64,000 nt of DNA from Chiloscyllium plagiosum (taxonomy: Eukaryota): NCBI RefSeq assembly GCF_004010195.1, contig NC_057742.1, positions 2,896,714 to 2,960,713 on the forward strand. The letters run 5' to 3'. The notes under the pieces were generated by a model. The model had not been told where the DNA came from. It ran no database searches and saw only the letters and a list, made by a program, of their open reading frames with translations. Numbering within the stretch: the stretch's first letter is position 1; each line of letters opens with the position of its first letter. Shown in pieces: positions 2,020 through 51,990 of the stretch. The position numbers and the translations under genes were made by a program.

Positions 2020-2442
2020 AAACCAAAAGAGAAAATGCTGGAAAATCTCAGCAGGTCTGGCAGCATCTGTAAGGAGAGAAAAGAGCTGATGTTTCGAGTC
2101 TAACTGACCCTTTGTCAAAGCTAAAAAAAGGGAAGAAATAGGGAAGTAGTTTTACGAGGCTGAGAGAAGGTGAGTCATGGCCCCAGAACCAAAGGTAGTG
2201 TCACTGTCATTATCACCTGGTTATTGCTCCCTTCGCTTCTGGGGCCATGACTCACCTTCTCTCAGCCTCGTATAAATACCTCCCTATTTCTCCCATTATT
2301 TTAGCTTTGATAAAGGGTCAGTTAGACTCGAAACGTCAGCTCTTTTCTCTCCTTACAGATGCTGCCAGACCTGCTGAGATTTTCCAGCATTTTCTCTTTT
2401 GTTTTCAGATTCCAGCATCTGCAGTAATTTGCTTTTATTAAA
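2020..2442. mobile_element. Fold-back (tail-to-tail) non-autonomous PLE derivative with HHR cores
   Basis: Inverted arms ~2017-2189 and ~2237-2408; flanking direct repeat gacagacctg at 2010-2019 and 2443-2452. Confidence 0.85.
2301..2341 (+). ncRNA. Minimal type-I hammerhead ribozyme motif, U3-A8 variant
   Basis: AGCU-UUGAUAA-A-GGGUC-AGUUA-GACUC-GAAA-CGUC-AGCU: 5-bp stem II, 4-bp stem I, palindromic ACGU stem III; mirror copy on - strand at 2088-2118. Confidence 0.7.
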
Positions 2443-4532
2443 GACAGACCTGGCGTGGGGAGGAGAGGGGAACAGCCACCACTGTATCAATAGTTTACAT
2501 TAGAGACACGTCCCCTTCCCAACCTCCGGTGCTGTGTTGCAGCAACTCCAGATCCATCTCTCTGGCCATACAGGACCAAGGGCAAATCCCAATCCCACTG
2601 TGTTGGCTCCTCTCTCATCCCCCAGGGGTAAATACCACTGTGTGCCCCCCCTCCGGGGTAAATCCCACCATGTGGGTCTCTCTTGCCCCCACCCCCCAGG
2701 GTAAATCCTACTCTCCATCCCCACCCTGTGGCCCACCAGCTGTTTCTCCAGCCGCTGAATAAAGACGGATCTCAGTGTGTCCTGGTGGATGGTTCCCGCT
2801 CACTTTCACCAACCCCTATCCACCCAGGCCCCGTGAGCCTGCCCCAATCTGTCTCCCTCTTCCCGGACCCCGGGAGCCTGTCCCACCCCAGGGACGATTT
2901 TGCCTTCACCATCGTGTACACCCTGGCCCTGCCCCACTGATTCCGAGGGGGTAGTGTCCATCCCTCAAAGCCGCTGGACTTTCTCAGTGCAGGCTGTTTG
3001 ATTCAGCGCAGGCAGAGTTAACCCATCGCCGTGCTCACCCAAATGGGGAGCTTTTACCTTTCTGTAAATGGAACATTATTTCACCATTAAAGAGAATCCA
3101 TCTAAATTGGCAGCAAAGTGCTCAACAATAAAATGCTGAATATAAAAAAAAACATAGGCCAGAAACAAGGAGCCATCTGCTCCAGCTTGACAGCAGATTG
3201 CCAACTCCGTGCCAACTCTCACTAAATGTTGCAGAAAAAAACGTGGTTGAATGTAATGGCCTTTGGCAGAGCAGTGCAGGGGGGAGGGGTCGGGTGCTAG
3301 GGCTCAACAGGGAACCATACAGCAAGGTGCCTAACGTAGTGATGCTGAGCAGGCAGGGAGCAGGTACCAGTACACTGTGATACTGAGGGAGCGCTTCACT
3401 GCCACAGACTCCCCTTCACACGAACTGTTCAATGGCCACACTGACTCAGTGCAGCAGGATATTCAAACTGAACGTCTCCGAATGTGCCTCGGTTAATGTC
3501 ACGCCCTCTACAAACACGTCAGCTCTCAGAAGAGTTACTGGATCTATAATTGGAAACTAAACCTTTACGTGAATATCAACGAGAGCTGAGCAACCCCCAT
3601 TCCAAGAAGATTCCCCACAGCTTCACCCACTTTTAGCCACTTGACAACTGGTTCCAGAGATCCCCCAAGGATGTGATGCCAACACTGGGGCAAAGAGACC
3701 ACTTGGAAAGGCAGTTTCTCCAGCTGTCCGGTTGCTAACTTACCAATGTATCGCCTCCATTTGTTGTTCCTCATGACATGGTTTACCTTTGAGATGCTGA
3801 AACTGTCTTTTCTAGCTAAAGATAAGTAGCTCTCAAAACATTTGCCGCAGAGTCATATTGGTGTGTTGACATTGGCAACTCTGACACAGAAATGTTTGAA
3901 AATCTCAACATGAAAGAATCAGGTCAAACTGAGTCAGGCTGAGTTCAGTTAGGGAAGTGTAAATATGACACCGGAGTGGGTGGTGGAAGACTGCGAGTGA
4001 TGCTTGGGTCAATTCAAAGCGTTGACAATCCCTTTCTAAAGTACAAAATGTCACCAAAACGATAAACACTTCAGAGAACTGCTGGATGAACAACAGTCAC
4101 CCACACATCAGGCTGTGCTCACTCAACAATATGGGCTTTCAGTTTCTCAATACCTCAGACTTAAAAATCATCAACTTGTTTTAAAATCCCTCTGTGGCCT
4201 CACCCTTTCCTCTCGCGGTGACCTCTTTCCATCCTGACCATGCACTGAGATCTCTGCATGCTCCTCCACATCCCAGATCCATTAGCAGCCAGAAATAAAT
4301 CCTTGAAATTCTTTTCTGAAACCTCTTGGCTTTTCATTTCCAACACTTTTTTTTTTAAAAAACCACCACTTTCTCAGTCCCAATATATTTGTGAGAGGGC
4401 TTGTTTCTGTAACATCCCTGTGAAAAGCCTTGGGGTGTTTGACCGCAGATCAGGAGATGGATTTGTTTTGTTATGAACATTTACAGGTTGCAAACTGGAA
4501 GAGAATGGAGTTGAGTATTGCAGGAAAGAAAC

Positions 4533-5190
4533 ATAGAAGCAGCAGCAGGAGGAGGCCATTCAGCCCTTTGACCTTGCTCCACCATTCAATAGGATCATGG
4601 CTGATCCTCTACCTCAATCCCATATTCCTTTATTCTCTCCATACCCCTTAAAATCCGTAACTTCATCTCTTTCATGGAGATATTCAGTGTCTTGGCCTCC
4701 ACACCCTTTTGTGGTCTCGAGTTCCACAGGTTCACTACCCTCCAAGTGAAGGACAGCCCCTTTCCTGAAACTGTGTCCCTGGTTCAACACTCCCCACAAC
4801 CATCTCCCCAAGGGGAAAACACTTTCCCTGCATCTCGTCTGTCCAGCCCCGTTTTATACATATCAATCAGATCCCCTTTCATCCTTCTAAACTCTAGAGA
4901 TTACAGACCCAATTCAACTAATCTCTCCTCATTTCTCAGTCCTTCATCCTGGGAATCAGCCGGGAGAACTTCTCCACCATCCCTCTATAGCGAGTATATC
5001 CTTTCTTAGGTACGTAGACCAAAACAGCACACAATACACCAGATGTAGTTTCACCAAGGTCCTGTACAACTCCAGTAAGCCATCCTTATTTCTGAACTCA
5101 AATCCTCATGCAATGAAGGCCAATGTACCACTTACCTTCCTAACTGCTTGCTGTATCTCATTGACTGGTGTACAAGGACATCCAGATCCC
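4533..5190 (-). mobile_element. CR1-type LINE 3' fragment, degenerate
   Basis: ggccattcagccc...ccattcaataggatcatggctgatc 3' tail and homology to the CR1 copy at 6204-7700. Confidence 0.8.
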
Positions 5191-5797
5191 TTTATACATC
5201 CTGCTACTTTTACCATCATCAGCATGTGGCACTGTTAGTTATCCCGAGATTACGAACTTTGAGGTCCTATGTTTTAATTTACGTTCTAACTCTCATACTT
5301 TGCTTGTAGGACCTTGTGCTTTTTTAAAACCAATGTCATTAGTTACTCCTGTGAAAATTTGATCTTTTTTTGGCTTAAAATGGTCAGAAACTCAGTTTGA
5401 ACATTAAACGCAAACCATCATTTTCAAGAAGTCATCTGATTTTAACCAAATGACCACCAAGGCACCCGAGGAGATAATTGCAGAGGCATTTGCTGACCTG
5501 AGTTTTACAGCCATTGGACAGTGAGATGGAGTATGAGCCAGTTACAGGTTCACACATTGGCGAAGAGGTCAGTGACAGCCGAGGTGCTGTTTTTAGGAAT
5601 CTGGAAGTAATCAGGATTGGGGAGAAGCCCCAGGGTGCTTAGACGTCAATGAGAAGTAAGCTCCAGAAGCAAAAAAAAAATCATGGGGCTGTTAAAAAGG
5701 AAGATATTCCACAAGCTTATGAAGGTAATGGGGAGGTGATGGCCTAGTGGTATTATCACTGGACTGTTAATCCAGAGACCCCAGTAATGTTCTGGGG

Positions 5798-5942
5798 CCA
5801 GAAACAGATGTTGCTGGGAAAGCTTAACAGGTCTGGCAGCGCCTATGCAGAGAAATCAGAGTTTCGGGCCCTGTTCAACTTTTCCAGCAACTTCTGTTTC
5901 TGTTTCTAATTCACAGCATCCACTGTTCTTTTGCTTTTATTA
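5798..5942. mobile_element. Short fold-back PLE derivative inserted in the SINE
   Basis: TSD aatgttctgggg at 5786-5797 and 5943-5954; inverted arms cagaaacagatgttgctgg / ccagcaacttctgtttctg. Confidence 0.75.
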
Positions 5943-6203: not shown

Positions 6204-7700
6204 TAAGTGCAGGAGTAGGCCATTCTGCCCTTGGAGCCTGCACCACCATTCAATATGATCATGGCTGATCATCCTCAATCAGTATCCTGTTCCTGCCTTA
6301 TCTCCATAAACCTTGATCCCACAATCCTTGAGAGCTCTATCCAACTCTTTCTTAAATGAATCCAGAGACTGGGCCTCCACTGCCCTCTGGGGCAGAGCAT
6401 TCCACACAGTCACCACTCTCTGGGTGAAGAAGTTTCTCCTCATCTCTGTCCTAAATGGTCTACCCCGTATTNNNNNNNNNNNNNNNNNNNNNNNNNNNNN
6501 NNNNNNNNNNNNNNNNNNNNNNNNNNNNNNNNNNNNNNNNNNNNNNNNNNNNNNNNNNNNNNNNNNNNNNNNNNNNNNNNNNNNNNNNNNNNNNNNNNNN
6601 NNNNNNNNNNNNNNNNNNNNNNNNNNNNNNNNNNNNNNNNNNNNNNNNNNNNNNNNNNNNNNNNNNNNNNNNNNNNNNNNNNNNNNNNNNNNNNNNNNNN
6701 NNNNNNNNNNNNNNNNNNNNNNNNNNNNNNNNNNNNNNNNNNNNNNNNTCACCTAACCTGTTCAGGTCACCCTGTAATCTCCTAACATCCTCCTCACATT
6801 TCACCCTGCCACCCAGCTTTGTATCATCAGCAAATTTGCTAATGTTATTACTAATACCATCTTCTATATCATTAATATATATTGTAAAAAGCTGCGGTCC
6901 CAGCACTGGTCCCTGCGGTACCCCACTGATCACCACCTGCCATTCCGAAATGGAGCTGTTTATCACTACTCTTTGTATCCTGTCAGCCAACCAACTTTCA
7001 ATCCAAGTTAGTACTTTGCCCCAATACCATGAGCCCTAATTTTGCTCACTAACCTCCTATGTGGGATTTTATCAAAAGCTTTCTGAAAGTCCAGGTACAC
7101 CACATCTACTGGATCTCCCTCGTCCATCTTCAGAGTTACATCCTCAAAAAATTCTAGAAGAAAATTAGTCAAGCATGATTTCCCCTTCATAAATCCATGC
7201 TGACTCTGACCTATCCTGTTACTACTATCCAGATGTGTTGTAATTTCATCCATTATAATAGACTCCAGCATCTTTCCCACCACTGAGGTCAGACTAACTG
7301 GTCTATAATTTCCTGCTTTCTCTCTCCCACCTTTCTTAAAAAGTGGTATAACATTAGCCACCCTCCAATCCGCAGGAACCGACCCCGAATCTATTGAACT
7401 CTGGAAAATAATCACCAATGCATCCACGATTTCCCGAGCCACCTCCTTCAGTACCCTGGGATGTAGACCATCAGGCCCCGGGGACTTATCAACCTTCAGA
7501 CCTAACAGTCTCTCCAACACCAATTCCTGGCAAATACAAATTCCCGTCAGTTCAGGTTCTTCGGCCACTGTTCCCTCAGGGAGATTGCTGCCCCAGTGAA
7601 CACAGATCTGAAGTACCAATTCAATTCTTCTGCCATTCCTTTGTTCCCAGTAATATATCCCCCTGTTTCTGTCTTCAAGGGCCCAATTTTAGTCTTAACC
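6204..7700 (-). mobile_element. CR1 LINE ORF2 reverse-transcriptase region, frameshifted, 5'-truncated, spans gap
   Basis: Translations KSPGPDGLHPRVLKE, NYRPVSLTSVVGK, QHGFMKGKSC, YLDFQKAFDKIPH, GVPQGPVLGP, KFADDTK, RNFFTQRVV..WNALP. Confidence 0.97.
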
Positions 7701-8892
7701 TGAGCCTAGCCAGTAACACCCACATCCTGTGAATGAACAAAGGAAAAAAAGACAAAAGTTGAGGGAACCCATGTCACGTAATAGTGAGCTAAGTTAGCAG
7801 TTTGGTTTAAGAATTTTGGTGAAGAGTCATTAACTGAAGTAAACTGTAAGTGATAAATGTGCAGAAATTTGTCAAAAGAAACCATGCAAGTTGATCCAGT
7901 TTCTGTGAAGAGCTTTAGGTGCCTGTTCACTGAGGCCTGAGAGGGTGTAATGTAATTGCTGGGATAGTAGGAATAGATCGTCCACTCTTATGTTTCTAAC
8001 GACAGTGTTCCAATGGTTCTTATCTCAGGTATTTTGGTTGATTCCTTTTATGTAAAAAATTATTATGTCCTTGTGTTAAAAATGCGTGGCAGACTCTTGT
8101 GAATATGTTCAGCAACTGATCTGTATGTTAAACAGAAAGGAAAATAAAAGTTATGGTCTATCAAGCCAGGTCTCTCTCTGGGATCAGATTTGTCCAGTGT
8201 TACCATCAGGTGCGACTGTAACAAAACATTTTTCCGTTAAGTAATAATTCTTACCGGGGCAACACTGGGCAAGCCGCCAGCTTTAAAATCAGTTTTGTTG
8301 GAATAAATTTCAGCTGCAAAGAATCATTGTGGTGGAACGAGCAAAGGCTGGTTTCCAAGGCAACACAGCTCTTTGTGCAGTTTGGCGCTGGATTCTGAAG
8401 TCAGCGCCTCGTGTTGGACCTGCTAGCTGCTCGTTAAGTGGAGATCAGCAGTGAATAATCCACCTCACCTTCACTAGCCCTGATGCCAGAGAAAGCCATG
8501 CACGTACACCGCCCTTCACTCATACCTTTGTCTAACCCCAACCGCAAGGAATTTCACGGAATAAACTATTCCAGTGTTTGCAGTCAAGACAAAGAGCTGA
8601 AGGAATGGAAACGGAAGGGTGGAAAGAAATCAAATCAATGCAATAATTGCTGAAAAACACCTGGGAAATCTGTCAGAGGCTGGAGTCAACAGGAGACAGC
8701 TCAGTGAATCTTTTCTCCTTCAGTGATGCTGATGGGTTACGGGTGTGAAAATGGCACTTGGTGCCCAGAAGCCAAAGGGCCTGCATTACCTTGGCACTGG
8801 CTTCATGTTCACACACTCACCTGCAACTCCAAGTGGTCCGGTTTCCAATCTCCCTCCCAGAGATCAGAACACAATGTCTTGGCTGATAGCCT

Positions 8893-9184
8893 CAGGATAG
8901 GGACAGCACAGGGTTCGATACAGAGTAAAGCTCCCTCTACACCGTCCCCATCAAACAGTCCCAGGACAAATACAATACAGGTTAGATACAGAGTAAAGCT
9001 CCCTCTACACTGTCACCCATCAACACATCCAGGACAGGGACAGCACAGGGTTAGATACAGAGTAAAGCACTTTCTACACAGTCACCCATCAAACACTCCC
9101 AGAACAGGGACAACATGGGGTTCGATACAGAGTAAAGCTTCCTCTACACTGTCCCCATCAAACACACTCAGGACAGGGACAGCA
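8893..9184 (+). repeat. ~69-bp minisatellite, ~4 units
   Basis: cagagtaaag recurs at 8921, 8989, 9058, 9128. Confidence 0.9.
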
Positions 9185-9679
9185 GTTAGAAACAGCAGAA
9201 AGACACCCAGCCTCACCCCCAGACTCCAGGCTGGGTAAGGTGGGGTTGTGTGTGGGGGATCTAGTCCACACTGATTGTGCTCAGGTTTATTCACTGTGTC
9301 CCATGCCAGCTGCCATACAGTGTAGTTGGGTGTGAATGCTGCCAGCTCTCAGAGGGGCTGTTTGAGGGCCTTCTTTACCAGAGGTGATTGTAATGCAGTT
9401 CACAGTCACCTTGATGGGCAGAATGCTGGCCTTTGTCATTATTTCACAGAGAATGGTGATGGATCCGACGGAAAACCAAATGGTACAATTTGACATCACC
9501 CATCTACATTGGCTCAAAAACCAAGCAGTATGTGAGCTAGGAAAGCCTTGTACAGGAGATTGCCAATGATCGAGACCCTTCAACAGTCTTCCTGTCTATC
9601 TGTCTACCCTTGATAGCAGTTCCCTCAGCTGCTGGAGCAGTAAAGCTGTGGGATTCCCATTGAAACCTCACAGTCACTT

Positions 9680-10143
9680 GCTCCTCCTTCAAACACACTC
9701 TCCTTGGCTCAGCTTTGGATCACTTGTCTTAATATTTACTCACTTCGTACTTTCGCACCTTGTACAGTGGGCAGCACCAGGGGATGTTGAACTATGTTAA
9801 AGGGGAGCTAGCACATTCATAATGGGCACAATGGCCTCCTGCACTATCTCATTCTCTGATACAGTTTGAATGTGCAAGAGAATTTACGGTTCTTTTCTCT
9901 CATTAATGTAAATATTACTCTGAACATTTCCCGGTAGTGTTCCACATTCAAACTGAATCAGAGAATGATACAGTGCAGGGGGCCATTGTGCCCATTGTGA
10001 ATGTGCTAGCTCTCCTTTAACATTGTTCAACATCCCATGGTGCTGCCCACTGCACAAAGTATTGAAAACAAATCTGACGAGGTAAATATTAAGATATATG
10101 ATCCAAAGCTGAGCCAAGGAGAGTGGGCTTGAAGGAGGAGAGA
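9680..10143. repeat. Long inverted duplication (~195-bp arms, ~68-bp spacer)
   Basis: 9680-9874 is the reverse complement of 9943-10143, e.g. gagctagcacattcataatgggcacaatggcc / ggccattgtgcccattgtgaatgtgctagctc. Confidence 0.9.
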
Positions 10144-10196
10144 GGGGCCGAGAGGTTTTGGTGGGAATCCCATAGCAACTGAAGGGCAGTAGTGAT

Positions 10197-11477: not shown

Positions 11478-11585
11478 GATTCTGGATCAGTGGTGCTGGA
11501 AGAGCACAGCAATTCAGGCAGCTGTGCTCTTCCAGCACCACTGATCCAGAATCTGGTTTCCAGCATCTGCAGTCATTGTTTTTAC
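11478..11585. mobile_element. Miniature fold-back PLE derivative (perfect 38-bp hairpin)
   Basis: Stem 11473-11510 / 11521-11558, 10-nt loop; TSD ctgcac(t/c)gggaacca at 11463-11477 and 11586-11600. Confidence 0.88.
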
Positions 11586-12319: not shown

Positions 12320-13215
12320 GCTCCCAGTGCAGTACTGAAGGACTGTCACACTGTTGGAGATGCTGCTTTTTGGATGAGAGGTAAACCCAAGGTTCCACAT
12401 TCACTGTCACCTGGATGTAAGATGCAAGATCCTGTGGCACTAAATCTGAAGAAGTATAGAGGAGTTTGGATGTAGGTTTGCTCGCTGAGCTGGAAGGTTC
12501 GTTTTCAGATGTTTCGTCACCTTACTAGGTAGCATCTTCAGTGAGCCTCCAGATGAAGCACTGGTGGTATGGCCCGCTTTCTATTGATGTCTTGGGGTTT
12601 CCTGAGTCAGTGATGTCATTTCTTGGGGTGACATCATTTCCTTTGATGTCATTTCCGGTTATTTTTCTCAGGAGTCGGTAAATGGGGATCCAAGTCAATG
12701 TGTTTGTTGATAGAGTTCCAGTCGGAATGCCATGCTTCTAGGAATTCTCGTACATGTCTCTGTTTGGCGTGTCCTAGGATGGGTGTATTGTCCCAGTCGA
12801 AGTGGTGTCCTTCCTCATCCATATGTGAGGATACTAGTGAGAGTGGGTCATGTCGTTTTGTAGCTAGTTGACATTCCTGTATCCTGGTGGCTAGTTTTCT
12901 GCCTGTTTGTCCAATGTAGTGTTTGTTACAGTTGTTGCAAAGTATTTTGTAAATAACATTAGTTTTGCTTGTTGTCTGTATCAGGTCTTCAAGTTCATTA
13001 GCTGCTGTTTTAGTGTGGTAGTGGGTTTGTGGGCTACCATGGTGCCAAGGGGTCTGGAGCTGGAGTCTGAGAACCAACAGCAAAGCAAATCAGTCTGTGC
13101 TGCTCAGTGTCCCGCTGCTTCAGTCAAACTGACTGCGTTTCCAACTTTCCAACAGCAGCTACACTTCAAATCTACTCCACTGGTTGAAAAGCATTTTGGG
13201 ACATGGCAAGATCTG
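12320..13215 (+). mobile_element. Old Deu-SINE-like relic interrupted by a PLE
   Basis: cccagtgcagtactga...ctgttggagatgctgctttttggatgagaggtaaacccaagg...gatcctgtggcact resembles the Deu domain; tail resumes ~13090-13215. Confidence 0.55.
12468..13060 (-). mobile_element. Penelope-like element 3' end: GIY-YIG endonuclease remnant plus pseudo-LTR with HHR
   Basis: ORF 12649-13083(-): NVIYKILCNNCNKHYIGQTGRKLATRI...H.FDW...REFLEAWH...SIN; HHR core CUGAAGA-stem II-GAAACAUC at 12508-12541(-). Confidence 0.93.
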
Positions 13216-14512: not shown

Positions 14513-14664
14513 GACAACGCTTCGGCTGATTTCTAACTTGCTGTGCTTTTCCAGCTTCACATCTATAGACTCGAGTTGGACAGGACTGAGGGAGCCAGTC
14601 AGGAGAATGTGCCAGGAGCTGGTTACAGGGCAGGGGTTTTACACGTGAGTTGAGGGAATCAAGG

Positions 14665-14805
14665 TGTGGAGGCGTTGGTGTTGGACTGGGTTGGACAAGG
14701 TCAGAAATCCCAAGCTTTCAGGGTACTTTGAGGATTAGCACCTGATGAGGTAGCAGCACTCTGAAACCTAGGGTTCTCAAATCAACCTGTTGGACAGTAA
14801 TCTGA
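14665..14805. mobile_element. Degenerate fold-back PLE derivative (family C)
   Basis: tgtggaggcgttggtgttggactggg...; decayed core ctgatga...gaaacct; homologous to 22070-22379 and 51276-51422. Confidence 0.6.
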
Positions 14806-15857
14806 AGCCGTGTGAGGGAATCATTGATGGTCTCTCGCAGGTGAGGAGGACTCTCTCCCACTCTCAGACCAATGCAGCTACCTCATGCCGTGTGACACTG
14901 GGGGCAGGTAGTCGGGAGGGGGAAGAGGGGGGAAAGGGGTGGGTGAGGCGTTGCTGTTTCCTCCCGGCCTCTGCTAATTCCCCGACATCAAGTGTCCAGG
15001 TGCACGACACCTTCCCAGACACGCCTCCCCCACTTTGGACATTCCTGTGCCAGTGATTCCCAGGTGTTGGTGGGAATGCTCCCCCCCCCCCAAGTCCGGC
15101 CTGCAGAGTACCCCTGAAGCACTAGCCCAGCCCAAGTGTCTCAGTGCCAACAGGAGAAAGCCCTTACCATTCCAGCAAACAGAACCAAGCGTTTTCCGAT
15201 CGAAGGCTGAAGCTAACCTCTGGAACAAGTCCTCATGTCAATCTCTCCACTCTCAGAAGCAAGAGTTTGAAGTCTTCAAACTCCTGAAGCAGCAGCTTCA
15301 AGATGTACCTCCCTTGCTTGGCCACTGGGTAGCAGCATAAGCCCAGGTTTAGTTGAACAAGTTTGGTTTGGTTTTATGGGAATGTAAAACTAGCCTTTGT
15401 TCCCCGCCCCCAACCCCCTCCCCGACACTAACCACCCCCAGCCCTAACACACACAGATAATGCCAGATCAATCACAGTAAACAAATCTTCCTCCAAAAAC
15501 AGCAGGCTACACACAGGGTAATGAAAAATCAGGAGACAAGGTGTGTTAATACCTTTCACCAGAAGGAACTTTTAAATGAAGATAATTCCAAAAAAAATGC
15601 TAGTTTCCTGAGAGATAACAGCCATCAATCCATTACCCTTCTTCCTTGTGTAGGAACAGGAGACTTCCGCTCTGCCCCTCTACTCCATACTATCATGGTT
15701 TTCAGTCCTGGCTGTTTTATCTCCTTCCTGACTTGGTTCATGTTCCTGACACTCAGCTGAAATCTATTAGTCAATATTTTGAAAGTTTTCAATTTAACCC
15801 CTTCCCTGCCTGGCCCCAGCTCCCAGTTTTATTTTTGGCTTGGTTCTCATTGGAGGT

Positions 15858-16068
15858 AGGAGAAAGTGAGGACTGCAGATGCTGAAGATCAGAATTGAGA
15901 GGGTGGTGCTGGAAAAGCACAGCAGGTCAGGCAGCGTCCGAGGAGCTGGAGATTCGATGTTTCAGGAATCAGGATTCCTGATGAAGGGCTTCTGCCCAAA
16001 ACGTTGACTCTCCCGCTTCACAGGTTTTTCCTGACTTGCTGTGCTTTTCCAGCACCACACTCTCAACC
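15858..16068. mobile_element. Fold-back PLE derivative with HHR core
   Basis: TSD ctcattggaggt at 15846-15857 and 16069-16080; CUGAUGA-A-GGGC-UUCU-GCCC-AAAACGUU from 15978 (G12 mutated to A). Confidence 0.85.
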
Positions 16069-20217: not shown

Positions 20218-20897
20218 TCAGGGGAAATGAGGAAACTGGTGAAATCCGAGTTCATCCCTTGTGGTTGGAGGGTTCCTAGGCGGAAGATGAGGCGTTCTTC
20301 CTCCAACTGTCGTTTTGTTGTGGTCTGACGATGGAGGAGTCCAAAGACCTGCATATCCTTGGTGGAGTGGGAGGGGGAATTGAAATGTTGAGCTACAGGG
20401 TGGTTGGGTTGGTTGGTCCGGGTGTCCCAGAGGTGTTCTCTGAAACGCTCCGCAAGTAGCCGGCCTGTCTCCCCAATATAGAGGAGGCCACATCGGGTGC
20501 AGAGTATGCAATAGATGATGTGTGTGGAGGTGCAGGTGAATCTGTGGCGGATATGGGAGTTTCCTTTGGGGCCTTGGAGGGAGGTGAGGGGGGAGGTGTG
20601 GGCGCAAGTCTTGCACCTCCTGCGGTTGCAGGGGAAGGTGCCGGGAGTGGAGGTTGGGTTGGTGGGGGTGTGGATCTGACGAGGGTCACGGAGGGAGTGG
20701 TCTTTACGGAATGCTGATAGGGGAGGGGAGGGAAATATATCCTTGGTGGTGGGGTCCGTTTGGAGGTAGCGGAAATGACGGCGGATGATGCGCTGTATGT
20801 GGAGATTGGTGGGGTGGTAGGTGAGGACCAGTGGGGTTCTGTCCTGGTGGCGGTTGGAGGGGCGGGGCTCAAGGGCGGAGGAGCGGGAAGTGGAAGT
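20218..20897 (-). mobile_element. Penelope-like element fragment (second family), GIY-YIG endonuclease domain
   Basis: Manual - strand translation: RFTCTSTHIIYCILCTRCGLLYIGETGRLLAERFREHL...PVAQHFN...EERLIFRLGTLQPQGMN; upstream PLVLTYHP motif. Confidence 0.93.
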
Positions 20898-22069: not shown

Positions 22070-22379
22070 GGTCAGAAGTCACACGACACCAGGTTATCCA
22101 ACAGCTTTTATTGAAATCACAAGCTTTCGGAGCGTTGTCCTTTCGGGTGTAGGTTTGCTCGCTGAGCTGTCGGTTTGATATCCAGACGTTTCATTACCTG
22201 GCTCAGTAACATCATCAGTGGTGACCTCCAAGTGAAGCACCTGTCCTTTCGTCAGGTGCACTTCACCAGGAGCAGCGCTCTGAAAACTTGTGATTTCAAG
22301 TGAACCTGTTGGACCATAACCGGGTGCTGTTTGACTTTTGACCTTGTCCACCCAAGTTCAACACCAGCGCCTCCACATC
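22070..22379. mobile_element. Fold-back PLE derivative (family C) containing a nested PLE end
   Basis: TSD aaatcagagaaa at 22058-22069 and 22380-22391; inverted arms; HHR-type core ...GCUCC-GAAA-GCUU. Confidence 0.8.
22146..22241 (-). mobile_element. 96-bp PLE 3' end with intact HHR core
   Basis: CUGAUGA-U-GUUAC...GUAAU-GAAACGUC at 22185-22218(-); TSD tgtcctttcg at 22136-22145 and 22242-22251; same family as 12468. Confidence 0.82.
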
Positions 22380-30055: not shown

Positions 30056-31644
30056 CAGACCTTAGGGTTCAGGCAGCTGAAGGTCCGGGTGGAATCAGGA
30101 GTGGTACTGGTCAAAATTAGAGGAAGGTTCTAGAACTGAACAGTGACAGGGAAAGGTAAGGCCATACACCGTGACAATGACTGTTTGTCCAGTAGTGTGT
30201 TCTATGGTGCCCTGAGGTTGTGAAGCAGCCTGATGTAAATCTGTCTGGCCTCTGTCAGAGCTGAGGCTGTTTCGCTTCTTGAACCATCTCCATGTTTTCC
30301 CAGAAGGAGCAGCTCAGACAGATTCCCCTTCACGCAGCTCGAGTTACATGAAACGAGTTACTGCTTCCCTACCTCCCAGCCCCCAACCCTAGAGAGAATC
30401 TACTCACTCAGCAAACATGGCTTCCCCACCTGGCCTCATGGCCATTCCCTGTTGGGGCACTGAAGATTCTTGTTCAAACAGATGACATAGGGTCATCAAA
30501 GAATAATCTTCCACGTGGGAGGGTGACAGAGGACACCACACGGCAACAGACTGAGAGAATATCAACATCATCAATGTTTAGTTCAAGGGAAGAGGGGTCC
30601 TTTGCCAATGTACATGATGAAATACGAGAGGATTGAGTTCACTCTTCTGTTAGGAGTTTTCAGCTTGATTTATGCAGAAATGATTCAATAAATCATGGTG
30701 ACAAGTTAACAACAGCTTAATTTTATATTATCAAAAATTAGAGTCACCATAGTCCTGCCAGTCCCTGGAGCTGCTCTCTCCTCAGACAGTGATGACTGGT
30801 GGTGGTTTAACCTGAGGGCAGAGGTTGAGGAGGAGAGTCCCTGATGGTAACCTCAGCCATTGCACAACACTTTTGGAAACCAGCCATCCAGCCAACTGAG
30901 CTAACCAACACCAGTTGAATGGGAATAATCTTGTTGGGGAGTCAAAGGTGTTTGAGTTTCACTCTACAGCAGGGCTTCCCAAAGTGGGGGTGGGACCCCA
31001 TTTGGGACCACCAGCCGAAATACCAGGGTCCAAGCTCTGAGGCAGCATTGCCCGCGGTGGAGCTTTGACCCAAGTTCGGATAACCCTGCTCCCATACAAA
31101 CAGACTCCCCTCTTCATGAATTCTCCACCCCACTCTCATGTTTCTTACTGAGGTGTTGTGACTATTTGCAAACCTCAATATGGGGCTATAGCAAGAAAAT
31201 ATTCAGGAAGGATTGCTGGACAGTCTTCAGTCTGACACCCTTGGGTGCAGACGTGAGAGTGCTACACTGTCAAGAGATGTTGACTTCTATCTGTGATCTT
31301 AAACCAAAGCCCCACATTCCACCTAAGGACTACGTTAAAGATCTGACAGCATTAGACAAAGGACAGCAGAGTTCACCCTGGAGCCCTGCTCAATACTCAT
31401 CTTCAAATGACATCAGATGAATCAGGGACCGGTCATTGTCATGATGCAGATTATGGGATCTTAGTCCCTTTGCTATAACAGTGACTCCACTTCACTGGCT
31501 GGAACATGTTTTGCAACATCCTGAGTTTGCTAAGAAAATGCAAGCTTCCTTTCTATCATGTTGCTGGGATCCTACATAATTTCTCCTCTTCCCCCAGCTC
31601 GGAGGAACCCAGCTCCTACCTTCCAGTCTTGATGAGAAGCCAGC

Positions 31645-31790
31645 CGATGCCAGGTTTTAGTCCAACAGGTTCATTTCACAGCGATGCTCCGAAAGCTGGT
31701 GATTTCAAATAAACCTGTCAGACTATAACCTGGTGTCGGCTGGCTTCTGACCTTGGCCACCCCAGTCCAACACTGGCACCTCCACATCAT
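31645..31790. mobile_element. Fold-back PLE derivative (family C), partial
   Basis: ccaggttttagtccaacaggtt / aacctgtcagactataacctgg; gctccgaaagct; 3' end ccagtccaacactggcacctccacatca. Confidence 0.7.
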
Positions 31791-33439: not shown

Positions 33440-33895
33440 GAGACAAAAAACTGTAGATGCTGGAATCCAAAGTACACAGGCAGGAGGCTGGGGGAACACA
33501 GCAAGGCAGGCAGCACCAGGAGGGACAGGCAGGAGGCTGGGGGGACACAGCAAGGCAGGCAGCATCAGGAGGGACAGGCAGGAGGCTGGGGGAACACAAC
33601 AAGGCAGGCAGCACCAGGAGGGACAGGCAGGAGGCTGGGGGAACACAGCAAGGCAGGTAGCATCAGGAGGTGGAGAAGTTAATGTTTTGGGTGTAACCCT
33701 TCCTCAGGGCTGGCGGAGGGTGTGGGGGGAGCTGCAGATAAAGGGGGTGACGAGGACAGGGTGGTGAAATGGGGATAGGTGAAGGCAGGTAGAAGGTACA
33801 ACCTGGTTGGTCAATGGGAGGAATGAATCCAGTTGGTGGAAGGAAGGGGATGGCATGGGAAGGGAGGTTATTTGAAACTGGAGAACTCAACATTG
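33440..33895 (-). mobile_element. PLE 3' end / pseudo-LTR with an internal 49-bp x4 tandem expansion
   Basis: Unit starts at 33476, 33525, 33574, 33623; decayed HHR CUGAGGA-A-GGGU-UAC-ACCC-AAAACAUU at ~33681-33707(-). Confidence 0.8.
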
Positions 33896-34871: not shown

Positions 34872-36460
34872 CAAAGTTTGTGCGAAGATTTGTAGCTCGG
34901 GTGCTCGTTGTTGTGGTTCTGTTCGCCGAGCTGGAAGTTTTTGTTGCAAACGTTTCATCCCCTGGCTAGGCGACATCATCAGTGCTTGGGAGCCTCCTGC
35001 GAAGCGCTTCTTTGATGTTTCCTCCGGTGTTTATAGTGGTCTGTCCCTGCCACTTCCGGTTGTCGAAGCGCTTCGCAAGAGGCTCCCAAGCACTGATGAT
35101 GTCGCCCAGCCAGGGGACGAAACGTTTGCAACAAAAACTTCCACCTCGGCGAACAGAACCACANNNNNNNNNNNNNNNNNNNNNNNNNNNNNNNNNNNNN
35201 NNNNNNNNNNNNNNNNNNNNNNNNNNNNNNNNNNNNNNNNNNNNNNNNNNNNNNNNNNNNNNNNNNNNNNNNNNNNNNNNNNNNNNNNNNNNNNNNNNNN
35301 NNNNNNNNNNNNNNNNNNNNNNNNNNNNNNNNNNNNNNNNNNNNNNNNNNNNNNNNNNNNNNNNNNNNNNNNNNNNNNNNNNNNNNNNNNNNNNNNNNNN
35401 NNNNNNNNNNNNNNNNNNNNNNNNNNNNNNNNNNNNNNNNNNNNNNNNNNNNNNNNNNNNNNNNNNNNNNNNNNNNNNNNNNNNNNNNNNNNNNNNNNNN
35501 NNNNNNNNNNNNNNNNNNNNNNNNNNNNNNNNNNNNNNNNNNNNNNNNNNNNNNNNNNNNNNNNNNNNNNNNNNNNNNNNNNNNNNNNNNNNNNNNNNNN
35601 NNNNNNNNNNNNNNNNNNNNNNNNNNNNNNNNNNNNNNNNNNNNNNNNNNNNNNNNNNNNNNNNNNNNNNNNNNNNNNNNNNNNNNNNNNNNNNNNNNNN
35701 NNNNNNNNNNNNNNNNNNNNNNNNNNNNNNNNNNNNNNNNNNNNNNNNNNNNNNNNNNNNNNNNNNNNNNNNNNNNNNNNNNNNNNNNNNNNNNNNNNNN
35801 NNNNNNNNNNNNNNNNNNNNNNNNNNNNNNNNNNNNNNNNNNNNNNNNNNNNNNNNNNNNNNNNNNNNNNNNNNNNNNNNNNNNNNNNNNNNNNNNNNNN
35901 NNNNNNNNNNNNNNNNNNNNNNNNNNNNNNNNNNNNNNNNNNNNNNNNNNNNNNNNNNNNNNNNNNNNNNNNNNNNNNNNNNNNNNNNNNNNNNNNNNNN
36001 NNNNNNNNNNNNNNNNNNNNNNNNNNNNNNNNNNNAACACCGGAGGAAACATCAATGAAGCGCTTCGCAGGAGGCTCCCAAGCACTGATGCTGTCGCCTA
36101 GCCAGGGGACGAAACGTTTGCAACAAAAACTTCCAGCTCGGCGAACAGAACCACAACATACCCCTTGTTTCATTAGAGTCAGTCTCGGTACCAGAAACTT
36201 GGCTGCTCATGCTACATTCCCCTGAGAGTTCATCCACAAACTCCATCAACAAACACATCGACCTGGACCCAATATACCAACCACTACAGCGGACAGCTGA
36301 AACTGACAACCGGAAGCGGCAGGGACAGACCACTATAAACACCGGAGGAAACATCAAAGAAGCGCTTCGCAGGAGGCTCCCAAGCACTGATGATATCGCC
36401 TAGCCAGGGGACGAAACGTTTGTAACAAAAACTTCCAGCTCGGCGAACAGAACCACAACA
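34872..36460. mobile_element. Young PLE pseudo-LTR array (one inverted plus at least three direct copies, each with an HHR), spans gap
   Basis: Near-identical CpG-rich copies; endonuclease C-terminus STNSINKHIDLDPIYQPL at ~36230; TSD atta(c/t)cattact at 34860-34871 and 36461-36472. Confidence 0.9.
35090..35129 (+). ncRNA. Minimal type-I hammerhead ribozyme motif
   Basis: GCA-CUGAUGA-U-GUCGCC...GGGGAC-GAAA-CGUU-UGC; sister cores at 34949-34982(-), 36085-36118(+, A9 mutated to C), 36387-36420(+). Confidence 0.75.
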
Positions 36461-37451: not shown

Positions 37452-37593
37452 ATAAGACCATAAGACATAGGAGCGGAAGTAAGGCCATTCGGCCCATCCA
37501 GTCCACTCCGCCATTCAATCATGGCTGATGGGCATTTCAACTCCACTTACCCGCATTCTCCCTGTAGCCCTTAATTCCTTGTGACATCAAGAA
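37452..37593 (-). mobile_element. Young CR1 3' tail
   Basis: (cataagac)n tail; nearly identical to 63736-63876. Confidence 0.88.
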
Positions 37594-38224
37594 ACAGACA
37601 GAAAAATCAGACAAGGTTCAACAAAATGCTGGGGATGGCCCTTGTGGTGCAATAGTAATGTCCTACCTCTGAGCTGAGAGGCCTGGGTTCATGTCCCACC
37701 TGCTTCTGAGTGTGTACTGACATCTCTGAACAGGATAAATAGGAAAAAAAAAAAAAAAAAATCCCAACCAATCAGCCAAGATACCAGGCACAATTCCAGC
37801 ATCACCCTCTTGACAATGTCATTGAATCACAGCATCATTGTGATGCAGTACAGAAGGTGGCCATTCGGTCCATTGAACCCATGGCTGATGATGGGCAAGA
37901 GTGACTTCACACTTGGCCATGAGAGTCCTTTCATGGAACTACAGCCTCCTTATGTTCATGTTACAATACCCTGCGGCTGGGGCTGGGAGTGGGGCTCTAT
38001 GGGCATGGAACCAAAGTGTTGGCAATGCCTACTACCCAATACTCTGGCAGCACTTAAAACATTTAAGAGATTGATATTGGCTGTGAAGAATTTTGAAAAG
38101 TCCTGAAGCTGTAAAAGATGCTGCAGATACCGGAGTTCCAGCATCACATGCCTGAGAAATCACCTACTTCCACAACAAGAGCAGAGAGAAAATATTTCTG
38201 AATAAGCTGATTAACTGAGCAAAA

Positions 38225-38453
38225 AAACGAAAGAATTGCAGATGCTATAAATCAGAAACAAAAACACAAATTGCTGGAAGGACTCAGCAGGTCTGGCAGC
38301 ATCCGTGGAGAGAAAGCCTAGTGAATGTTTCAGGTCTAGTCAGCCTTTTTCAGAACAGTACTGAAGAAGGGTCCCTGGACCCGAAACATTAATTCTGATT
38401 TCTCTCCACAGGTGCTGCCAGACCTGCTGAGTTTTTCCAGCAATTTCTGATTT
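38225..38453. mobile_element. Fold-back PLE derivative with HHR core
   Basis: Inverted arms; CUGAAGA-A-GGGUC-CCUG-GACCC-GAAACAUU at 38361-38390. Confidence 0.8.
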
Positions 38454-40299
38454 ACAGAGCACTCTCTAGCCCCTCAAACAAGATTACAAATCCTGGAGAT
38501 CAACCTTTGACAACCCAAGGTGCCCAGCATGAACAGTAGAAACATTTTAACAAAATATTCTCCATGTTAAACCTTCTTCGGTCTTCAACAGTGAAAGAGC
38601 TGTTTCTGTACCAATTGCTCCGATTTGCTTCCACTGAGATTTTAGTAGGGAGTTTCTAAATTTAAAACACACGGTTGCTCCACCTATTAATTACATTCTG
38701 ATAAATCGTTGTGATCAGGTTAAATATTGTATCAGATCTATCTTCTGTCTGAGTGCCCACTTTGGCTGCAAGTCTCCTACCTACTGGCATTTAAGCCTCT
38801 CTATTAAAGTGACGGCAGAATCATTCCTGCAAGTCAACTTTTACTTGTTTTCTATGGGGCGGAAGCTCTCTGATAGGAAGATGATAGATCACATCCTTCA
38901 CTTATTGAAACCTCCTTACCAGATGGGAATAGGTGAGCAGGCTGTGACAGAAAGTCATGTGCTGGGAAGAGGCATCGATTCTAGCTATTAATCATGTCCC
39001 AGGACCCTTCTCAGTAATCAAAGGCCACAGCTGGAATGATATATGGCCAATGTCACCACAGAAGACCCTTAACAGGACGGTACGCTCACCATCTGATGGG
39101 TCAATGTGCAGATAAACACTAGCCACAGACACAGCAGAGTGACCAGTCTAATCCATCACCATCACCTTAATGGGTGACCGTATTAGCAAACTCCAGTTTT
39201 GGGAGGGTAATTTTAATTTTTAAACTGGATTCTTTCTGTTCAGAGACATAAATATGAAATAAACCAAATGGAAACAATTGGAAACTCAGACGCACACACA
39301 CACGTCCATCACAGCACATATATTTGCACAAAATCGCTTCCTCACCCACAACCCTCCCAGCCCCACACATTCATGTCTCAAACCCCCCTTCACTCTCCCA
39401 CAGTAAAGCATTGCTCTCTGTTACCCCTCCTCATTTGACACACAAGCAAACCCCACTTCTCTCATCTATTTTTAATCACTAAATACCGAGCTATTGCCGG
39501 GACACACTCTGCTCTGTCTGTCATTCTCTTCCTGATGATGATAACCTGCAGATGAACTCCACTTGCAGGGTTTTCAATAGCTTGTTCCGACATCCATTCA
39601 CGTCATGTCATCGGGAAAATGGGATTAATAATTCCAGGAACCGGCCCCAGCTCAATAATGCCAATATGCTTTGACAAACAGCAGCATGCCTGTCTCAGTC
39701 TCCAGGGATGCAATGTGTGTTAGAGGACTGTATGTAATATCAGTCAGGGACTCAGGTAACGTCAGTTATTAATCCCCCGCTCTAATATAGCAGCGAGGAT
39801 CAGAACAAGCTCGGACAGCCACTAGAAAATAATAACAAAGAACAGGTCGCATGAAGTGGGATGAAGTCTTCTCTTCACATGGGATTCAATATCAGTGAAG
39901 ACATGGGTTGTCCTGAATGTAACAACTGTAGTGTTTAAATACCTGTGTGCTGGGATAGTCACAGTGAGAGGCTCAGTGACTGTATCCAACCCCAGTCAGG
40001 TCTCAGCTTGGAAGTGGGAATACAGAGGGGCTGGGAGCAGAGGTGGGCAAGTGATGGGGGAGAAAGACTTGTGGGTGTCTTACAATTGGCTTCAGCTCCT
40101 TGTGCTACTGGGACTTTTTAGAAATCTCAGTGGGGGAGGAGGGTTGGTAGTGTTGACCTCCCAACTGTTAATGACTCTTTCTGTAAAGGATTGGAGGTCA
40201 GGTGATGATACCATGGGACGTAGCTAGGATGCCCTCCAAAGTTGAAATGGGCGCTCAACATTCACTGCCCCTTTGCAGGATCTGGGTGAATGGGCCGTA

Positions 40300-49293: not shown

Positions 49294-49512
49294 GGAGAAA
49301 GTGAGGTCTGCAGATGCTGGAGATCAAAGTTGAAACTTTATTGCTGGAACAGCATAGCAGGTCAGGCAGCATCCAGGGAACAGGAGATTCGACGTTTCGG
49401 GCACAGGCCGAAGAAGGGTTCCTGAAGAAGGGCCTGTGCCCGAAACGTCGAATCTCCTGTTCCCTGGATGCTGCCTGACCTGCTGTGCTGTTCCAGCAAT
49501 AAAGTTTCAACC
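49294..49512. mobile_element. Young fold-back PLE derivative
   Basis: 14-bp TSD taaatagacaaaaa at 49280-49293 and 49513-49526; ~80-bp near-perfect inverted arms 49329-49409 / 49431-49511. Confidence 0.92.
49416..49455 (+). ncRNA. Minimal type-I hammerhead ribozyme motif, intact canonical core
   Basis: GGGUUC-CUGAAGA-A-GGGC-CUGU-GCCC-GAAA-CGUC-GAAUCU: 6-bp stem I (two G-U pairs), 4-bp stem II, GUC triplet. Confidence 0.82.
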
Positions 49513-50524: not shown

Positions 50525-50828
50525 GTAGAGTCGATAAAGTGTGTTACTGGAAAAAACACAGCAGGTCAGGCAGCATCTGAGAAGCAACAGTTGATTTTTC
50601 AAGCTTTATTGTAGCTGCTATTATCTATTGGTGCTTACAGTGGCCTTGAACAGTGTGAATGCAGACATGTATGATCTATAAGCTACTGCTCCCTGGTGTG
50701 ATCTGTAAACTTCCTCCATTACACCATTAAGATGAAACGTCGACTCTTTTGCTCCTCAAGTGCTGCCTGACCTGCTGCACCACACTTTATCGACTCGGAC
50801 TCTCCAGCATCTGCAGTCCTCACTATCC
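50525..50828. mobile_element. PLE-derived inverted ends flanking ~140 bp of unrelated sequence
   Basis: gagtcgataaagtgtg...gcaggtcaggcagca / gaaacgtcgactc...tgctgcctgacctgc...cacactttatcgactc. Confidence 0.7.
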
Positions 50829-51275
50829 ACTGTTGTAATGTAGGAAACACTGAGGCCAACTTGAGTACAGCAAGTTCCCACTTCAACAATATTGATAACA
50901 ACCAACCAATCTGTTATAGCGCTGCTGATTGAGCCTATATAACCAGGAGAAAAACCCTCCTCAACACATGGCACAGGATCTTCTGTGTCCATTTGAGGAG
51001 ACAAATGGAGCTGGTCTCTCAAACGACTGCACTGTAACCAGTATGGTGCTCCCTCAGCGCTGGCTGCAGGGTGATCCGTCTGGTGCAGGAGTTGAACACA
51101 CAGCCCTCTAGCTCAGATGAGCTGGGACGAGAGGAATTTCTCATTCCCACAAGCGCCAGGCACTGGGATCTTCATCCACAGCCATGTGGAGAGGTGACAA
51201 TATTGGTGCCTGGGAAATTGGGTTGGTGGCACTCAAACCGACTGACAGTGCAGCCTGCAGACTCTCCGTGAGAAA

Positions 51276-51422
51276 TGATGTGGAGATTCTGGTGTTGGAC
51301 TGGGGCGGACAAAGTCAAAAATCACACAATACCAGGTTATAGTCCAACAGATTTATTTGAAATCACAAGCTTTCAGAGCATCGCTGTTGGACGATAACCT
51401 GGTGTCGTGTGACTTTTGGCTT
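51276..51422. mobile_element. Fold-back PLE derivative (family C)
   Basis: TSD tctccgtga(g/a)aaa at 51263-51275 and 51423-51435; inverted arms. Confidence 0.8.
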
Positions 51423-51894
51423 TCTCCGTGAAAAAGTCATCAGTTGGTCGATTCTCTTCAAAGCAGGCTCAGCCTGAAAAACAAGTCAAATCAAAGCAAC
51501 ACGCAGAGCTGTGAAACAGTTAACTCGTTGCATTTGCTTTGAAGGTTTCCAGAGGAAACACCACAGTGGCCCAGAAAGGGTTAACTCCACAGTCTCCACA
51601 ACTTGCGCCAACTGTAACAGCTTCTCAGCAGATGTCCCTGATGTGTGAGGCTGTGGGGAAGATCACAGAGAGAGGTGCTGGTAATACAATCCATTACCAT
51701 CGCAAGGCACACCTCAGTCTTAGCATGTCACTTCCTCCCGTCAAGCCCCATTCCACCATCCCCTCCTCAAATGAGGCCACTCACATTTCCCTCCTCTGAG
51801 TTACTAGACGTCTCCACATGAGCAAAATAAATCAACTCAAAGCATCTGATCACAGAGGTCTGCTTTCCTGTCAGTTTGCGGTGGGGGTATCAAA

Positions 51895-51990
51895 GCATGT
51901 GGCGCTAGAAAAGCACAGCCTGTCAGGCAGCATCCGAGGAGCAGGAGAGTCGACGTTTCGAACTTAAGCTCTTCATCAGGAATATGGGAG
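51895..51990 (-). mobile_element. PLE 3' end fragment with intact HHR core
   Basis: CUGAUGA-A-GAGC-UUAA-GUUC-GAAACGUC at 51952-51979(-). Confidence 0.78.

What the first reader, a model, noticed from the sequence alone, without database searches (positions are those of the whole stretch)
2020..51990. Window-wide set of short non-coding HHR-bearing retroelements from ~4 unrelated Penelope families
Seen: about a dozen HHR-like cores (2088, 2307, 12508, 15978, 22124-22256 split, 22185, 33681, 34949, 35093, 36085, 36387, 38361, 49422, 51952). Their stem II sequences differ but re-pair, and the best-preserved copies have a loopless palindromic stem III (ACGU or AGCU). One family is directly linked to a GIY-YIG remnant (12468-13060), the 34872 array carries a homologous endonuclease C-terminus, and a separate GIY-YIG fragment lies at 20218-20897. 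Established: PLE pseudo-LTRs carry minimal type-I HHRs thought to act as dimers. Inference: about one core per 5 kb implies a very large genomic ribozyme load, mostly in 100-400 bp non-autonomous units reminiscent of retrozymes.
Basis: partly seen in the sequence, partly recalled or inferred. Interest (0 to 1): 0.72.

Follow-up and report, generated by a model that had tools for sequence, protein, structure and literature searches.

The report
Shark Penelope-retroelement minimal hammerhead copies
The window is strewn with short, mostly dead copies of the ribozyme-bearing end of Penelope-like jumping genes in a shark-like genome; the motif is real and very abundant, but this kind of ribozyme is already described and the copies are not retrozymes.

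Summary
The cores are real: 12 of the 14 listed pass a minimal-hammerhead descriptor (5 intact; shuffles give none with 0-1 defects), and stems covary between subfamilies. They are the known min-HHR of Penelope-like elements (PLEs), including the published extra nucleotide and U3-A8 variant. Corrections: the 12 cores lie in only 8 insertions (the whole 34872 array is one, with a 12-bp target duplication). The families are not unrelated: a Poseidon-type group, a Neptune-type group, and one unlinked AGCU group. Poseidon-type units are not non-coding: the ORF's AUG lies inside the ribozyme. Units carry 10-16-bp target duplications, head-to-head arms and a one-sided 32-38-nt tail, the published PLE signature. 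No HHR tandem array, RNA end pile-up or RNA joint was seen, so they are not retrozymes. Ten of 16 core-bearing arms start about 25-32 nt downstream of the position where longer copies carry a TATA box. This suggests run-off copies of the uncleaved transcript's 5' end, dead on arrival. Copy number is high (roughly 10^3-10^5 per family). The scan noted the same families on other pieces of this genome.

The parts
2020..2438 (.). Head-to-head Neptune-type (group C) insertion; two U3-A8 variant min-HHR cores (2088-2118 minus, ACAU decayed; 2307-2337 plus, intact); TATAAA 36 nt before the plus core; tail on plus arm; 14-bp TSD (1 mismatch) 2006-2019 / 2439-2452
12468..13060 (-). 5'-truncated Poseidon-type copy (D): broken GIY-YIG C-terminal region followed by pLTR; core 12508-12541 (ACAU, stem II mismatch); AUG at A9-U-G10.1
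14662..14812 (.).
15858..16068 (.). Group B inverted pair, 12-bp TSD, tail on left arm; core 15978-16005 (G12A); left arm has the core internally deleted; facing C3 positions 12 nt apart
20218..20897 (-). Neptune-type GIY-YIG fragment with CxxC linker; no pLTR or HHR attached
22070..22378 (.). Group F (AGCU) inverted pair, 13-bp TSD; its left-arm core is split by the nested insertion below
22146..22241 (-). 96-bp Poseidon-type unit (D2) nested in the F core, 10-bp TSD; intact core 22185-22218; starts 23 nt before C3
33443..33897 (-). Neptune-type unit (E): last 9 codons and stop of the EN ORF, about 160 nt of UTR, defective core 33681-33707, four 49-bp tandem copies downstream of the core, tail
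34872..36460 (.). One complex Poseidon-type (A) insertion, 12-bp TSD (1 mismatch) 34860-34871 / 36461-36472: inverted tailed arm (core 34949-34982), direct arm (35093-35126), 872-N gap, arm with core 36085-36118 (A9C), unidentified 71 bp, EN C-terminus from 36230 plus pLTR (core 36387-36420, G10.1A)
38224..38453 (.). Group C inverted pair; core 38361-38390 (ACAU); degenerate facing core at 38353; no clear TSD
49294..49512 (.). Group B inverted pair, 14-bp perfect TSD, tail on left arm; intact core 49422-49449; left arm starts inside stem II
51904..51985 (-). Solo group B arm, core 51952-51979 (stem I mismatch), no TSD found
11478..11585 (.). Group B inverted pair with 15-bp TSD and tail but no HHR (junction downstream of the ribozyme)
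31632..31789 (.). Group F inverted pair, 11-bp TSD, core-less (starts in stem II loop)
50529..50827 (.). Group B inverted pair with about 120 bp of unrelated sequence between the arms, 16-bp TSD, core-less
51276..51422 (.). Group F inverted pair, 13-bp TSD, AGCU stem III but no CUGAnGA

Best explanation
The motifs are minimal type-I hammerheads in the pseudo-LTRs of endonuclease-positive Penelope-like elements (Poseidon-type A/D/D2; Neptune-type B/C/E; group F probably PLE, parent not found) in a carpet-shark-like genome. The short units are single insertion products of the PLE RT/GIY-YIG protein. Shown here: 10-16-bp target duplications, head-to-head arms, a 32-38-nt tail on one arm only, direct joins to EN coding ends, and AUG inside the Poseidon-type ribozyme. 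Inferred from the Anolis PAc biochemistry (PMC11167929): the protein nicks both target strands and primes reverse transcription at two internal RNA sites a tail-length apart, giving two facing arms. Inferred here: many arms are not random truncations but run-off copies of the transcript's 5' end, made on uncleaved RNA, because they start just before stem I, about 25-32 nt past the TATA position. Such copies lose the promoter, cannot re-mobilise alone and decay (CpG loss in ACGU). The ribozyme most likely works only in transcripts of intact tandem master copies, as a dimer or with protein help, where it would cut off the 5' leader (and the AUG in Poseidon types).
For: Descriptor and shuffles. 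Covariation on sequence-only alignments: score reached by 0/500 and 4/500 shuffles, slid controls mostly lower. TSD score >=9 in 10 of 16 units vs 4 of 292 random pairs. Tail difference 32-38 nt in 8 of 9 pairs. A peptide 30/36 identical to residues 19-54 of RT ORF P0050, ending at the tail end. Unit E begins with the Neptune EN C-terminus, the best of 82,386 nine-codon windows. 32 of 58 Neptune-type metagenome loci carry the same HHR 89-498 nt after EN vs 0 of 68 coding controls. DNA depth does not fall from the A ribozyme into the EN C-terminus, and a loose end at 36230 continues the EN frame. 10 of 16 arms start 3-7 nt (B/C/F) or 23-28 nt (A/D2) before C3, with TATA at -35/-36 and -53 in longer copies. 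RNA reads run through the cut sites with no end pile-up.
Against: No full-length element lies in the window and no genome was available. Group F has no shown parent; B and C are tied to Neptune only through similarity to E and HHR type. Element bounds for the TSD test were set by eye, some after I had noticed the repeats; 5 of 16 units gave no TSD and one match (38224 pair) is not at the boundary. The transcription start is inferred from TATA spacing, not mapped; B and F have no upstream copy of their own. In A3 one slid control (+3) equals the covariation score (0.241 vs 0.231), and differences among A/D/D2 show no third-codon bias. The RNA library is single-cell poly(A), 2% read, and poorly suited to 5'-OH ends or circles.
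Confidence: 0.8

Rival explanations
1. Groups B, C and F are true non-autonomous PLE derivatives: a few promoter-bearing, ORF-less masters (like the TATA-containing 2020-2438 pair) are transcribed and mobilised in trans, SINE-like.
For: Most B/C/F units hold only about 100-140 nt around the ribozyme; summed DNA depth over the C hairpin is about 1e6 against 10-11 for unique sequence; non-autonomous PLE derivatives are published (PMC8557442 passage on Chlamys/MRC1; bioRxiv 10.64898/2026.07.22.740005).
Against: Pair centres differ from copy to copy (joints), unit E runs into EN coding sequence, and most short arms lack the TATA box. This rival is compatible with the same insertion chemistry and cannot be excluded for F.
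Confidence: 0.25
2. The units are non-LTR retrozymes: head-to-tail HHR monomers that self-cleave to unit-length RNA, circularise and re-insert.
For: Size range and type-I HHR overlap; tandem retrozymes were reported in one chondrichthyan genome; cores 36085 and 36387 are on one strand 302 nt apart.
Against: No tandem array contains an HHR; facing arms are inverted; the 302-nt pair is separated by EN coding sequence and both cores are defective; no RNA joints among the rows shown and no end pile-ups; RNA/DNA depth ratio of these ends is no higher than that of neighbouring repeats in 6 of 7 bins.
Confidence: 0.04
3. Dispersed intact cores are active in host transcripts, pairing in trans through the 4-nt palindrome and cutting pre-mRNAs, a genome-wide ribozyme burden.
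For: More than 97% of family-A DNA depth carries the catalytic consensus at A9 and G10.1; reads from these families are present in RNA, about 8:1 in HHR sense for A.
Against: Stem I pairing probability is about 0 in all 11 whole-element folds (monomer folds, dimers not modelled). Published min-HHRs cleave poorly even as dimers or need the PLE protein (PMC4209133, PMC11167929); 8 of 9 Xenopus dimers were inactive. The strand bias may come from oligo-dT priming on A-rich tracts. CpG decay in 3 of 12 stem IIIs looks neutral.
Confidence: 0.07

Closest known systems
Minimal hammerheads (min-HHR) in pLTRs of metazoan Penelope-like elements (Cervera and de la Pena 2014, PMC4209133)
   Same: Type-I topology, no loop 3, palindromic 15.2-16.2, extra nucleotide between 9 and 10.1, G10.1-C11.1, U3-A8 core variant, many covarying families per genome, mostly solo motifs, opposite-strand pairs 100-700 bp apart, read as truncated PLEs.
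   Different: Sharks are not named in the parts I read or in supplementary file 2 (file 1 could not be searched). Reported counts are about 4,000 (coelacanth) and 9,000 (Xenopus); the density here looks about ten times higher per megabase if the window is typical.
Canonical EN+ PLE insertions with inverted pLTR and tail (Arkhipova et al. 2013, PMC3846280; Craig et al. 2021, PMC8557442)
   Same: 5'-truncated copies, adjacent inverted copy, head-to-head palindromic junction, 30-40-bp tail at one end, 8-10-bp TSDs, pLTR overlapping the first codons, TATA box in the pLTR.
   Different: Here most insertions are only the two ends (100-400 bp), TSDs are 10-16 bp, and many arms start at one place just before stem I.
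PAc, Poseidon of Anolis carolinensis (Frangieh et al. 2024, PMC11167929)
   Same: ORF starts at stem II with the cut site a short way downstream (26 bp in PAc, 28 nt here); two RT start sites define the tail; uncleaved RNA is the template; no RNA-seq ends at the cut site.
   Different: PAc was tested biochemically; nothing here was. Neptune-type and F units have A, not U, as the extra base and no AUG there.
Metazoan non-LTR retrozymes (Cervera and de la Pena 2020, PMC7229834; Li et al. 2026, bioRxiv 10.64898/2026.07.22.740005)
   Same: Short, type-I HHR, derived from or related to PLE pLTRs.
   Different: Retrozymes are head-to-tail tandem repeats with an HHR in each unit, giving circular RNAs; the units here are solo or inverted, with minimal cores, tails and TSDs.

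Membership tests
PLE min-HHR | Conserved core CUGAnGA/GAAA/NUH (or U3-A8 variant) with stems I and II | tested here: met
   5 intact and 7 with 1-2 defects of 14 listed; 0 in 20 shuffles at 0-1 defects
PLE min-HHR | Extra nucleotide between 9 and 10.1; loopless palindromic stem III | tested here: met
   All 12 have the extra base (required by the descriptor; the three strict hits, where it was optional, also have it); ACGU in 9 of 12, ACAU in 3
PLE min-HHR | Compensatory changes between families | tested here: met
   Stem I, stem II and the 3-8 pair change on both sides; small, related samples
PLE min-HHR | Located in the pLTR downstream of a GIY-YIG ORF | tested here: met
   Direct for A, D and E; by similarity for D2, B, C; not shown for group F
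PLE min-HHR | Self-cleavage as dimer or with protein | not testable with these tools
   No end pile-up in one poly(A) run, which is a weak test
EN+ PLE insertion unit | Inverted truncated copy, one-sided 30-40-bp tail, TSD | tested here: met
   Tail 32-38 nt in 8 of 9 pairs; TSD in 10-11 of 16 units
EN+ PLE insertion unit | Parent ORF with telomerase-like RT and C-terminal GIY-YIG | tested here: inconclusive
   Only EN ends and the ORF start are in the window; shark relatives join RT to these (P0050, P0034, P0001); no tree built, clade names rest on CxxC linker presence and absence
Non-LTR retrozyme | At least two head-to-tail units each with a complete HHR | tested here: not met
   the 872-N gap in the A insertion cannot be read
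Non-LTR retrozyme | Canonical type-I HHR with loop 1-loop 2 contacts and efficient cleavage | tested here: not met
   Cores are the minimal loopless type with 3-4-bp stem I; cleavage itself not tested
Non-LTR retrozyme | Abundant unit-length linear and circular RNAs | tested here: inconclusive
   No RNA joint among 15 rows shown of 2,087; poly(A) library unsuited to circles

The most novel reading that the evidence does not exclude
The mini-insertions are strong-stop-like run-off cDNAs: PLE RT primes at its internal sites near the transcript's 5' end and copies back to the cap. Their shared left edge would then map the transcription start, placing the hammerhead at the very 5' end of the RNA, where cleavage removes the capped leader (and the AUG in Poseidon types) as a translation-to-template switch rather than a unit-length processor. 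With order 10^5 intact-looking motifs, carpet sharks would hold the densest known genomic hammerhead set and a large natural record of PLE insertion chemistry.
Probability: 0.35. Interest if true: 0.55.

Novelty: new member of a known kind. Interest (0 to 1): 0.3.

Why it matters
The role of the PLE hammerhead and the origin of inverted pLTR-plus-tail insertions are open questions. A vertebrate genome with thousands to a hundred thousand copies per family, several subfamilies with covarying stems, and clean TSD-bounded mini-insertions lets these be tested statistically (start positions, tail side, TSD length). As a ribozyme discovery it is ordinary: type, variants and dispersal were published in 2014.

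Tried and rejected
Rfam scan: no hammerhead model among 12 matches; the miRNA-family matches are below threshold and reflect the inverted arms. No whole genome is held, so no genome-wide count. Exact motif scans found no match in metagenome contigs or viral contigs. Sequencing-run search listed no RNA holder of the stretch; run X22 laid 0 reads (no test). Codon-position test on A/D/D2 showed no third-position bias. The 8-bp repeat at the 38224 pair and weak repeats at D, E, 51979, 25776, 19584, 5802 and the Neptune fragment were rejected as TSDs. A distal extension of stem I seen in A and D is not kept in D2 and was not counted. The hit at 29290 was rejected as chance. A cleavage-defined 5' end was rejected: no well-bounded arm starts at +1; two old arms (5802, 29998) align from +1/+2 by BLAST, but 5802 keeps GAAAC remnants upstream and 29998 is too decayed. 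The 71 bp at 36159-36229 stayed unidentified. Lunse et al. 2017 was not held.
Full report
Setting. The best protein matches of both GIY-YIG remnants are from carpet sharks (Chiloscyllium, Rhincodon, Stegostoma, Hemiscyllium), so the window is taken as carpet-shark-like genomic DNA. It has 1,149 N in two gaps. No whole genome is held.

Observation. A strict first descriptor found 3 cores. After viewing the copies I allowed a 3-bp stem I, one internal stem II mismatch and the U3-A8 pair, and required the extra base after CUGAnGA. Twenty dinucleotide shuffles gave 0, 0 and a mean of 0.7 hits in the three classes. The cores at 2118 and 2307 are the U3-A8 variant. The 33681 core and the split 22124-22256 core fail. 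AGCU stems occur only in group F copies that are split or lack the first core strand. Rfam has no matching hammerhead model. On alignments made by sequence alone, the covariation score was reached by 0 of 500 shuffles for 12 B/C/E arms (14 cells changed on both sides, including stem I and the 3-8 pair) and by 4 of 500 for 6 A/D/D2 arms. In the latter, one slid control scores as high and four rows are near-identical. The tool warns that relatedness inflates these numbers.

Families. Self-BLAST shows A (34872 array), D (12541) and D2 (22218) are 71-75% identical across and beyond the ribozyme, and that B and C share a downstream motif; E aligns with them. So there are three groups, not four unrelated families. 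Using 11 window references, 34 arms in 20 clusters cover about 6% of the non-N window, and 12 clusters hold both strands.

Parents. A and D join directly to GIY-YIG C-terminal coding sequence. In A, D and D2 the bases A9, the extra U and G10.1 form an AUG (4 of 6 copies intact). The A reading frame from there is 30/36 identical to residues 19-54 of a 656-aa shark RT protein, and the match ends where the insertion ends. These units are therefore not non-coding; PAc of Anolis has the same layout (PMC11167929, parts 1-2 of 4 read). Unit E begins with nine codons and a stop that match the EN C-terminus of shark protein P0002; among 82,386 nine-codon windows only this one and the separate Neptune fragment score 28 or more. 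As an outside check, 79 metagenome loci were fetched with an alignment of Neptune-type EN. I left out 8 whose match stopped short of the EN end and 13 with under 300 nt downstream. Of the remaining 58, 32 carry the same A-inserted, palindromic min-HHR 89-498 nt after EN in sense orientation, two with U3-A8; 0 of 68 coding stretches do. Group F has no shown parent. Clade names rest on the CxxC linker (present at 20218-20897; PMC8557442 passages), not on a tree.

Insertion anatomy. A search for direct repeats at element ends scored 9 or more in 10 of 16 units (10-16 bp) against 4 of 292 random pairs. Bounds were set by eye, some after I had noticed the repeats. The whole 34872-36460 array lies between one 12-bp repeat pair, so four listed cores are one event and the 12 cores are 8 insertions. 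D2 sits inside a group F ribozyme with a 10-bp duplication. In 8 of the 9 TSD-bounded inverted pairs measured, one arm is 32-38 nt longer at its outer end; the ninth differs by 20. This is the inverted-pLTR-plus-tail pattern described in PMC3846280 and PMC8557442 (passages read), and PMC11167929 ties the tail to two internal RT start sites. No tandem array contains a ribozyme.

5' ends. Of 16 core-bearing arms (36085 left out, cut by the gap), 8 B/C/F arms start about 3-7 nt before C3 and two Poseidon-type arms start 23 and 28 nt before it; 6 run further upstream. Longer copies carry TATAAA at -36 (C) and -53 (A) and a TATA-like word at -35 (E). The short starts thus fall about 25-32 nt past the TATA position, the usual spacing to a transcription start (established knowledge). 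I infer that many arms are run-off copies of the 5' end of an uncleaved transcript and lack their promoter. The start was not mapped, and B and F have no upstream copy of their own. No well-bounded arm starts at the cut site.

Reads (stretch 36036-38600, likeness 85). In DNA contigs of the same organism, unique pieces have depth 10-11, while summed depth is 0.3-1.3 million over family A and 1.08 million over the C hairpin. A second organism shows the same. Depth does not drop from the ribozyme into the EN end, and a loose end at 36230 continues the EN frame. The window's A9C and G10.1A are private: 99.7% and 97% of depth carry the consensus. In one single-cell poly(A) run (2% read), family A has depth 60-110 in HHR sense and 7-25 antisense; reads cross the cut sites; no place with many starts or ends is listed, and no RNA joint appears in the 15 joint rows shown (2,072 not shown). 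The second RNA run laid nothing. RNA/DNA ratios are 0.7-2.6 (one A-rich bin 8.9) against 2.2-5.6 for neighbouring repeats, in units of 1e-4, as expected for read-through. The library cannot fairly test circles or 5'-OH ends.

Folding. In all 11 whole-element folds stem I has probability about 0; stem II survives clearly only at 15978. The 49294-49512 pair folds into one long hairpin (z -23.7). Only family A tends to the HHR fold locally. Dimers and protein help are not modelled.

Load. Counting all 12 cores gives one per 5.2 kb; intact cores, one per 12.6 kb; insertions with an intact core, one per 15.7 kb. With four events the 95% range is roughly one per 6-57 kb (my arithmetic), and the window was picked for this feature. 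For a genome near 3 Gb (contig totals of 2.2-3.0 Gb) that is about 5e4-5e5 intact-looking motifs. Searches listed no paper counting hammerheads in sharks; a whale shark preprint notes PLE expansion in introns (passages). Lunse et al. 2017 was not held and may include sharks; supplements of the 2026 bioRxiv preprint (parts 1-3 of 5 read) are closed, and file 1 of PMC4209133 (parts 1-2 of 4 read, file 2 searched) could not be searched. PMC6765202 was read as passages.

Verdict. Real, known-type PLE minimal hammerheads in TSD-bounded, mostly head-to-head insertion products of Poseidon- and Neptune-type elements. They work like PLE ends, pass the membership tests that could be run, and fail the retrozyme test. 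What may be new is the copy density and the clustering of 5' ends at the probable transcription start. Earlier notes of this scan report the same on other pieces of this genome; they are not independent evidence.

Noticed in passing
window 2337-2360, 38390-38412 and other group C arms: Right after the cut site group C reads like a 3' splice site (branch-like word, pyrimidine tract, CAG) followed by ATG; if used, the ribozyme would sit at an intron end, and the many copies are ready-made acceptors.
   Followed up: no
proteins P0032, P0045, P0048, P0049: Annotated shark host-gene isoforms (MAP3K7, CUEDC2, NT5DC1, EYA3-like names) contain Poseidon EN-like stretches: exonised PLE pieces or annotation artefacts.
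   Followed up: no
window 12649-13089; P0036, P0040, P0043, P0044: After sharks, the closest named relatives of the Poseidon-type EN are from liver flukes (56-66% identity), a possible horizontal-transfer lead.
   Followed up: no
window 36159-36229: 71 bp inside the A insertion, itself high-copy in DNA depth (about 1e5), matching nothing else in the window or the 50 fetched proteins.
   Followed up: partly
window 50607-50726: About 120 bp of unrelated sequence lies between two inverted B arms inside one 16-bp TSD; possible captured DNA.
   Followed up: no
window 22136-22251: A Poseidon-type unit inserted inside the ribozyme of a group F unit; PLE-into-PLE nesting.
   Followed up: yes
window 52233-52637 and 53964-54367: About 405-bp inverted repeat, 94% identical, around 1.3 kb of unique sequence; overlaps a LINE-like remnant.
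   Followed up: partly
window 9645-10176: About 530-bp imperfect palindrome (79%), MITE-like, unrelated to the PLE ends.
   Followed up: partly
window 37452-37593 and 63735-63876: Two 142-bp copies, 99% identical, of a high-copy repeat; one transcript carrying a relative gives most RNA reads.
   Followed up: no
window 8891-9184, 32379-32694, 1360-1475: Dispersed arrays of a 69-bp minisatellite; CR1-like RT remnants at 6298-7688.
   Followed up: no
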